Below are positions 57,658 to 58,728 of a stretch of DNA of 64,000 nt, in pieces. The notes under the pieces are model-generated. The model saw only the letters and a list, made by a program, of their open reading frames with translations. It made no database searches and was not told the DNA's origin. A program made the position numbers and the translations under genes. Numbering within the stretch: the stretch's first letter is position 1; the number at the start of each line of letters is the position of its first letter. The DNA comes from Saccostrea cucullata. Lineage: Eukaryota. Location of the stretch: the NCBI RefSeq assembly GCF_032062105.1, contig NW_026932584.1:1-64000 (forward strand), written 5' to 3'.

Positions 57658-57881
57658 ACTTTCCTTCTCCTAAAAAAGAAGTTGATGACGACAAAGGCGA
57701 CAGCAATAAGGACACTGACGACGACAGTACCGACACAGTCAATTTCCTCGAAATTTCAAGGGGAGCAACAAGGGAAGTAACAAACTCAAGGCCCCCAGCA
57801 ATAAGGGAAGCAAAAAGGTCAAGGCCGTCAATTTCCTCAGCAATAATAAGAGCAACAAAGGGCAGTAACAAGGTCATTTGA
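57658..57881 (+). CDS. Second coding exon of the secreted protein; D/K/S/N-rich low complexity; possibly frameshifted or pseudogenised
   Basis: Acceptor attacag at 57656-57657. The phase-1 join gives NFPSPKKEVDDDKGDSNKDTDDDSTDTVNFL...KGSNKVI* (96 aa total). GC content is above the flanks. AATAAA occurs near 57934, 57988 and 58098. Confidence 0.65.
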
Positions 57882-58728
57882 GGACGATAAGAGAAAGACA
57901 AGGACGAAGAATTGACATCAAGAATTGAAGAGCAATAAACACTTTGACGAGCTTATAATATTCTTTGACAATAACAGAAACCTTAATAATAAATCATCAA
58001 AAGACTTATCTTTGCATTATTACGAAGAAACGACATCGAACCAATAATCACTCAGACAAAATATATGATTTTCAATAACAATTAAAGAATTATTCAAAAT
58101 AAATTCTAAAAAGAATCACCATTGCTTTGTGTATTTTTTTTTTTTATTTTTTTTCAATTTAAACTTTTTTTCTAAATTCAAAAATTGGAAACGAAAATAA
58201 TCAAGAGACTCTTTCCTCCAGAATATTCTTAGACAAAACCCAAAAGTCTCTGTCGAGACTGTATCTCTACTGGTTTGTACCTATAACCAAGGTTACAATA
58301 GCAATAATAAGGATAATACTCCTTGATTAAGTCTCTTTTTGTTTCAATATTGCAATGACTACAACTGTACAAGTAACTTTTAATGAAAGTTTAAAGAATT
58401 TTCAATCTTAATTACCATGGCAAGAAAAGTTAGGTAAGTCCATAGTACTAAAGCTGATTAAGTTCTATGCTAAGTCATCTTTGATCAAAGGACGATTGTA
58501 AAGTTTACCGTAAAAAGGGAGATGGTTAAAACTGAGGTTCGTTCTGGCGTCCTATGATATCCTTATCAAGTCGTCCTACTGTTCAGAGTTAGCAATTTGT
58601 GATTTAATCGTGCTGTAATAATAAATTTCTTTGTAAGAAATATTCCTTTAGCAGCTGTGAAGAGTAGCCTATGTAATATGTCACCTGACAACCCGGAACA
58701 CATTTATTTATCGCTTCGGCAGAGCGGT

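What the first reader, a model, noticed from the sequence alone, without database searches (positions are those of the whole stretch)
57658..57940. Secreted-protein exon whose SNK repeats lie in a shifted frame between two compensating indels
The annotated frame gives KGDSNKD...TVNFL, then unremarkable sequence, then KGSNKV. Between ~57752 and ~57860 the -1 frame reads NFKGSNKGSNKLKAPSNKGSKKVKAVNFLSNNKSNK, repeating SNK and VNFL. Unit variation (AGC/AGT, AAT/AAC, AAG/AAA) sits at third codon positions only in that frame. Both shift points are short homopolymers (AAA at 57751, AAAGGG at 57857). Past the stop, fragments read FEDDK and EKDKDEELTSRIEEQ*, suggesting further indels. Inference: the ancestral protein is an acidic/basic SNK-repeat secreted peptide. 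This copy is a frameshift-remodelled paralog, a pseudogene or an assembly error.
Basis: partly seen in the sequence, partly recalled or inferred. Interest (0 to 1): 0.7.

Follow-up and report, generated by a model that had tools for sequence, protein, structure and literature searches.

The report
Broken copy of oyster peptide gene
This is one of five neighbouring copies of a small rock-oyster gene predicted to make a secreted peptide; this copy carries a single reading-frame shift and has lost the first exon and TATA box that its sister copies keep, so it is likely an ordinary dead duplicate rather than a protein remodelled by two compensating shifts.

Summary
The shifted repeat frame is real; the two compensating indels are not. 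The exon belongs to a three-exon gene (non-coding exon, signal-peptide exon, acidic plus KGSNK-repeat exon) with five copies on this Saccostrea contig and two alleles on a second haplotype contig. Five of the six other copies read from the acidic part into the repeats in one frame and stop at the TAA matching 57866-57868, as do spliced RNA contigs of a related species. The window copy has one shift: 8 bases (57750-57757) where sisters have 6. The "second shift" is an old out-of-register repeat unit around the family's own stop, shared by sister copies; FEDDK and EKDKDEE lie in the shared 3' UTR. The copy also lacks about 270 bases holding the TATA box and first exon, which all six other copies keep. 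Best reading: a dead duplicate (0.75); an assembly slip at the shift is not excluded (0.14). The family itself has no homologue in the protein collections searched and resembles, in layout only, oyster antimicrobial precursors. Interest is low.

The parts
56265..56801 (.). 537-nt MITE-like insertion with 15-bp terminal inverted repeats and a TAA target duplication, absent from sister copy L006
   Evidence: 40 of 40 scored candidates (of 420) are near-full-length copies at 93-100%. A PIF/Harbinger-type label for a TAA duplication is recalled, not tested.
56939..56946 (+). Junction of a deletion of about 270 nt (L006 = C14721:65125-65394) that removed the TATA box, start region, first non-coding exon and its GTAAGT donor
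   Evidence: the segment is present in 4 of 4 other copies on C14721 and 2 of 2 on C18841; RNA contigs begin with this exon (loose ends at 57352)
57011..57016 (+). Left-over GTAAGT donor-like site, a local duplicate of the first-exon donor region, also in L006
   Evidence: use not shown
57353..57448 (+). Second exon: short 5' UTR, ATG at 57382, 22 codons of predicted signal peptide, phase 1
   Evidence: best 12-residue hydropathy 2.84; covered by spliced RNA contigs of homologues
57449..57657 (+). 209-nt GT..AG intron
   Evidence: Joint 57448-57658 in contigs of runs X11, X16, X19, X6
57658..57749 (+). Third exon, acidic part (10 D+E in 25 residues) and TVNFL linker
57750..57757 (+). The single frame shift: 8 bases where sisters have 6; centre of a 14-of-16 self-complementary stretch 57746-57761
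57758..57865 (+). Basic KGSNK-repeat tail, out of frame in this copy; colinear with the tail of L002
57858..57872 (+). Old out-of-register repeat unit that contains the family stop codon TAA (57866-57868); shared with sisters
   Evidence: no change at the TAA among the changes counted for run X6
57869..58103 (+). 3' UTR of the family, with the as-is stop TGA 57879-57881, the FEDDK and EKDKDEE fragments, and AATAAA at 57934, 57988 and 58098
   Evidence: homologous RNA contigs reach 58030-58037

Best explanation
This exon belongs to a tandem duplicate of a small Saccostrea gene predicted to encode a secreted peptide; the duplicate has lost its TATA box and first exon and carries one frame shift, so it is likely a pseudogene. 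Shown: the family layout (signal, acidic part, basic KGSNK tail, stop at the TAA matching 57866-57868), the single shift, the upstream deletion and the MITE. Inferred: a block of about 8.5 kb was duplicated with L006, the deletion silenced this copy, and a small complex mutation at 57750-57757 then drifted in. The shifted frame runs on because SNKG codons rarely give a stop one base over, and it meets KGSNKV only because the family's stop sits in an old out-of-register repeat unit. For the intact sisters, the likeliest role (inferred from layout alone, about 0.45) is a host-defence precursor whose acidic part masks a basic tail until it is cut; a shell or cement matrix role is the rival (about 0.3).
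For: Five of the six other copies (L002-L006) are in frame from acceptor to TAA; L007 has its own 1-nt deletion. Contigs of runs X16, X19 and X6 have 122 letters where the window has 121, which is in frame. The promoter and first exon are in 6 of 6 other copies and absent here. Run X5 (spliced; 97 of 97 bases identical in the signal exon) gave 4 contigs; its third-exon letters are those of L006, none specific to this copy. The as-is frame shows pS 0.036 and pN 0.168 against L002, and is open in L002, L004 and L006 as well, closed in L005 and L007. Window and L006 flanks differ at 2-7% of sites against 0.6% between haplotype contigs (343 in 55.4 kb), so this is a paralog and not a doubled allele. 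Histone control: 3 frame-breaking indels in 32 copies, 11,886 nt, giving at most about 0.07 expected in 277 nt. The shift site is a replacement within a near-palindrome (114 of 63,984 window 16-mers are as self-complementary).
Against: No raw reads or second allele cover this copy: C18841 starts at about C14721:83,400 and no other contig matched. One added base in the 8-nt stretch would put it in frame, and the assembly has indel noise: 60 one-base indels in 55.4 kb between haplotype contigs, 64 in 4.9 kb at a contig end. The histone rate is biased low: only the 30 best-scoring of 75 matches were fetched, H2B was not counted, and 5 matches under 90% identity were dropped, one with 6 gaps. The X5 contig has the window's G, not L006's T, at 57401. 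Splice sites and ATG of this copy are intact and a donor-like site remains at 57011. Contigs show presence, not absence. The role of the intact peptides has no direct evidence.
Confidence: 0.75

Rival explanations
1. The shift is an assembly slip of one base; the copy has an intact frame in the animal but still lacks its promoter and first exon, so it is silent or weakly read.
For: One-base indels are frequent between haplotype contigs (if all 60 were errors, about 0.15 expected in 277 nt); L007 differs from its allele L005 by a 1-nt deletion; the shift touches runs of three A and three T; an earlier AI note on this genome reports a frame broken here and open in other oysters (e1-8630809, not checked).
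Against: Histone genes are mostly intact; the site is an 8-for-6 replacement with flanking substitutions; a promoterless copy 2-7% diverged from its sister would be expected to collect indels (inference).
Confidence: 0.14
2. The copy is alive: an upstream promoter, perhaps in the MITE, splices from the donor at 57011 and makes a 96-residue secreted peptide with a new Arg/Thr/Ser tail that stays basic.
For: ATG, both splice sites and an open 96-codon frame are intact; the new tail has 10 K+R and 3 D+E; a donor-like site remains.
Against: TATA box and first exon are deleted; no letters specific to this copy in the X5 contigs; no synonymous bias in that frame, and its openness is shared with intact sisters.
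Confidence: 0.05
3. Two compensating frame shifts remodelled the middle of the protein and restored the ancestral C-terminus.
For: Relative to a hypothetical older repeat array the two offsets do cancel, and KGSNKV returns in frame.
Against: The second offset is shared with intact sisters and contains the family stop; no sister or homologous transcript has KGSNKV in frame; only 7 codons are 'restored' before a TGA.
Confidence: 0.02
4. The whole copy is a mis-assembled second haplotype of L006.
For: The assembly keeps haplotype contigs; no other allele of this region was found; the X5 contig mixes a window-type base with L006-type exons.
Against: Divergence from L006 is 2-7% against 0.6% between alleles, with two private insertions and a tail colinear with L002 rather than L006.
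Confidence: 0.04

Closest known systems
Cg-Prp precursors of Crassostrea gigas (PMC3390580, passages read)
   Same: Signal peptide, then anionic pro-region, then cationic C-terminal part; multigene family with variable copy number (4 to 18).
   Different: Cg-Prp has a 16-18 residue Pro/Arg-rich tail with Pro-Arg-Pro motifs; here the tail is 37-48 residues of K/G/S/N repeats with 0-2 prolines. No sequence comparison with Cg-Prp was run; no such hit came up.
Myticalins of Mytilus (PMC5577615 and PMC12294457, passages read)
   Same: Linear cationic precursors, three exons with a non-coding first exon and a phase-1 intron, tandem clusters, repeat-number variation, frequent pseudogenes with frameshifts and deleted exons.
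   Different: Myticalins place the anionic part last, behind a Lys-Arg site, with the phase-1 intron there; here the acidic part comes first, the phase-1 intron follows the signal peptide and the intact tails have no dibasic site.
Molluscidins (described in PMC5577615)
   Same: Short, likely unstructured, lysine-rich repeat peptides of oysters.
   Different: Molluscidins lack a signal peptide and anionic pro-region and are built of dibasic repeats; this family has both regions and single lysines.
Pairs of compensatory frameshifting mutations (PMC8935012, abstract read)
   Same: A frameshifted segment followed by sequence that looks back in frame.
   Different: Here only one indel separates this copy from its sisters, and the 'restored' part is 3' UTR in them.
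Shell matrix proteins with repetitive low-complexity domains (term seen in PMC10543319, passages; family details recalled)
   Same: Secreted, lineage-restricted, Asp-rich and Lys-rich low-complexity blocks.
   Different: No mantle expression or shell proteome evidence here.

Membership tests
Duplicated pseudogene | Intact paralog with the same exon-intron structure | tested here: met
   L004 and L006 intact with promoter, donor and frame; L002/L003 in frame with an uncertain donor
Duplicated pseudogene | Disabling lesions | tested here: met
   Frame shift 57750-57757; deletion of TATA box and first exon
Duplicated pseudogene | Lesions confirmed in raw reads | not testable with these tools
   Only contigs of other individuals were served
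Duplicated pseudogene | No transcript or protein | tested here: inconclusive
   One same-or-close-species RNA run shows L006-type exons only; contigs cannot show absence
Compensatory frameshift pair | Two indels absent from relatives whose sum is a multiple of three | tested here: not met
   One private indel; second offset shared
Compensatory frameshift pair | Ancestral coding sequence resumes after the second indel | tested here: not met
   Sisters and homologous transcripts stop at the TAA matching 57866-57868
Cg-Prp | Signal, anionic pro-region, cationic tail | tested here: met
   Charge counts; hydropathy
Cg-Prp | Pro/Arg-rich mature peptide with Pro-Arg-Pro motifs | tested here: not met
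   0-2 Pro in intact tails
Myticalin | Cationic peptide, Lys-Arg site, C-terminal anionic extension | tested here: not met
   Reverse order, no dibasic site in intact tails
Molluscidin | No signal peptide; dibasic repeats | tested here: not met
   Signal exon present; single lysines
Antimicrobial peptide (function) | Kills or inhibits microbes; expressed in haemocytes or epithelia | not testable with these tools
   No tissue labels or assays
Shell matrix protein | Mantle expression and presence in shell proteome | not testable with these tools
   No tissue labels; supplements of shell proteome papers were not searched

The most novel reading that the evidence does not exclude
The KGSNK family is an undescribed class of rock-oyster defence peptides whose repeat codons keep a second, still basic reading frame open, so that one indel swaps a Lys/Asn tail for an Arg/Thr/Ser tail; this copy, re-promoted by the upstream MITE, is such a swapped peptide in use.
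Probability: 0.04. Interest if true: 0.6.

Novelty: new member of a known kind. Interest (0 to 1): 0.22.

Why it matters
The flagged feature matters little: dead copies are common in tandem families of mollusc secreted peptides (myticalin papers). The by-product is of modest value: a transcribed five-copy Saccostrea family of 82-98 residue acidic/basic precursors with no homologue in the protein collections, Pfam or PDB searches made here and no motif hit in the paper library. It is cheap to test by synthesis, and could be a new linear defence peptide or a shell or cement component.

Tried and rejected
Homologue searches with third-exon peptides only (the signal exon was not included): P0002 near length, 39 candidates, none at E<=10; alignment A2 against longer proteins, 7,992 scored, none; A2 against 1.84 billion representatives, 2 hits, both unrelated long proteins with other repeats; Pfam, one weak Vpu hit at E 0.042 below cut-off among 4 proteins; PDB, 3 weak BAP1 hits at E 0.09. 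Low complexity weakens all of these. The ESM Atlas was unavailable. Paper searches: 'oyster'+'KGSNK' 0; three family motifs 0; topical searches listed no paper on this family by title or abstract start; supplements were not searched and may list these peptides. Earlier findings near this place or by sequence: none. A relic coding role for the post-stop stretch was tested: pN/pS about 0.56-0.69 in all three frames over 10 non-independent pairs, stops in each, identity 86-97% against 81-94% for the intron: no frame favoured. Purifying selection on the tail in the family frame was not seen for window vs L002 (pS 0.15, pN 0.125); signal plus acidic part shows it against L005 (pS 0.27, pN 0.05-0.11) but weakly among closer pairs. 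All 22 runs held under 0.1 of the words; 7 were laid (X1, X2, X5, X6, X11, X16, X19); gaps in cover were not used as evidence. A search for a second allele with upstream DNA hit only a repeat. No structure was predicted, as the peptides are low-complexity.

Full report
Setting. The window is C14721:1-64000 of a 1.17 Gb, 23,869-contig animal assembly. A KCNQ exon at 9881-10291 (-) is 96% identical to Saccostrea echinata and 86% to a Crassostrea protein, so this is a rock oyster or a very close relative.

Observation. From 57660 the exon reads an acidic stretch, TVNFL, then EISRGATREV... KGSNKVI and TGA at 57879-57881. The frame from 57752 reads the SNK and VNFL repeats to TAA at 57866-57868. 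Tandem Repeats Finder finds only a 33-nt, 1.9-copy unit; the repeat finder gives spacings of 33 and 55, so the last unit is one base out of register. Variation among six SNK words is at third positions with one exception, a test biased by how words were picked.

Gene model. ATG 57382, GTAAGT donor after 57448, 209-nt intron, acceptor before 57658. Contigs of runs X11, X16, X19 and X6 join 57448 to 57658 and carry a further 5' exon. The first 22 codons are predicted to be a signal peptide (hydropathy 2.84; no dedicated predictor was run).

The family. A search of the assembly gives 7 matches of 7 candidates (same set by protein): five on C14721 (57.7, 66.1, 78.7, 103.4 reverse, 130.5 kb) and two on C18841, which is a second haplotype of C14721:83.4-143.7 kb at 96-99.5%. 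In five of the six other copies the distance from acceptor to TAA is in frame and the protein runs acidic part, then KGSNK repeats, ending KGQ, RGN or KGK. L007 has its own 1-nt deletion and its allele L005 lacks the ATG. Products would be 82-98 residues; acidic parts hold 9-10 D+E, tails 8-12 K+R, no cysteine.

One shift, not two. The window copy has 8 bases at 57750-57757 where sisters have 6. The AAAGGG point is shared: the out-of-register unit also straddles the stop in L006 and L002, and all seven copies continue TAACAAGGTCATT. It is best read as an old slip in the last repeat unit that made the family's stop (inference). Contigs of a related species (organism A; X16, X19, X6, three studies) have 122 letters where the window has 121, in frame to the same TAA. 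So the 'unremarkable' frame is the accident and the SNK frame is native. That frame is also open in L002, L004 and L006 and closed in L005 and L007; against the colinear L002 tail it shows 1 synonymous and 13 non-synonymous changes (family frame 3 and 11). FEDDK and EKDKDEE lie in the shared 3' UTR, with no frame favoured.

Lost promoter. L006 and the five other sisters keep a TATA box, a first non-coding exon and its donor; the window copy lacks about 270 nt (L006 65125-65394), joined at 56939-56946. The 5' end of the X5 contig matches this exon in L006. A 537-nt MITE-like element with 15-bp inverted ends and a TAA duplication sits 140 nt upstream of the junction. Window 50.3-58.6 kb matches 61.4-67.0 kb at 2-7% substitutions, against 343 substitutions in 55.4 kb between haplotype contigs: a real tandem paralog.

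Expression. X5 (organism B, on record as possibly DNA but spliced) matches the signal exon at 97 of 97 bases; its third-exon letters are those of L006, with extra repeat units; none of its 4 laid contigs has letters specific to this copy. It carries the window's G at 57401 where L006 has T, which may be an allele, conversion or contig mixing. Contigs cannot show absence.

Error or real? No raw reads or second allele were available. Haplotype contigs differ by 60 one-base indels in 55.4 kb and by 64 in a 4.9-kb end block. Histone genes show 3 frame-breaking indels in 32 copies (11,886 nt), at most about 0.07 per 277 nt, from the 30 best of 75 matches, without H2B and without 5 matches under 90% identity, one of them gapped. 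The site is a replacement inside a 14-of-16 palindrome (0.18% of window 16-mers; noticed after the fact), which fits a templated mutation but would also survive one more T. I put a real shift at about five to one over a slip; the 270-nt deletion does not depend on it.

What the intact genes do. Not shown. No homologue was found and no paper holds the motifs. The layout matches Cg-Prp precursors (PMC3390580, passages), and the three-exon tandem cluster with pseudogenes resembles myticalins (PMC5577615, PMC12294457, passages), but defining features of both fail. I favour a defence precursor whose acidic part masks the basic tail (about 0.45) over a shell or cement matrix peptide (about 0.3); the tail is poor in hydrophobic residues, which argues against simple membrane lysis. 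It is not a compensatory frameshift pair as defined in PMC8935012 (abstract).

Verdict. An ordinary broken duplicate in an apparently undescribed, lineage-restricted secreted-peptide family. Interest 0.22.

Noticed in passing
L005 (C18841:29.5-30.2 kb) and L007 (C14721:103.3-104.0 kb): The two alleles of the reverse-strand copy each carry a different lesion: L005 lacks the ATG, L007 has a 1-nt deletion in the acidic part; L007 also has one more 33-nt repeat unit.
   Followed up: partly
L002 and L003, end of signal exon: The GTAAGT donor of the other copies is missing; the in-frame candidate is a weaker GTAATA after 55 coding bases, and the GTATTT candidate is out of frame.
   Followed up: partly
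L004 third exon: The tail ends in RPGN-type repeats instead of KGSNK, with the same stop position.
   Followed up: no
window 56265-56801: MITE-like element, at least 40 near-full-length copies at 93-100%.
   Followed up: partly
window 53852-54662: A second dispersed repeat of about 810 nt inserted here and absent from the L006 block.
   Followed up: partly
window 9878-10351 (-): Coding exon of a KCNQ potassium channel gene; the contig begins inside or near this gene's downstream part.
   Followed up: partly
window 52658-53370: 147-nt satellite-like array, 4.9 copies, with relatives at C14721:111.6 kb and on C18841.
   Followed up: no
window 58204-58365: Very high-copy repeat just past the gene (contig depth above 100,000 in run X1).
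   Followed up: no
window 44354-44731 (+): A 125-codon open frame that looks like a fragment of a retroelement reverse transcriptase C-terminus (resemblance recalled, not tested).
   Followed up: no
G000:C5047 and C11428 (L052-L055, L059): Tandem H3-only arrays at about 1.55 kb spacing, two copies with frame-breaking indels.
   Followed up: no
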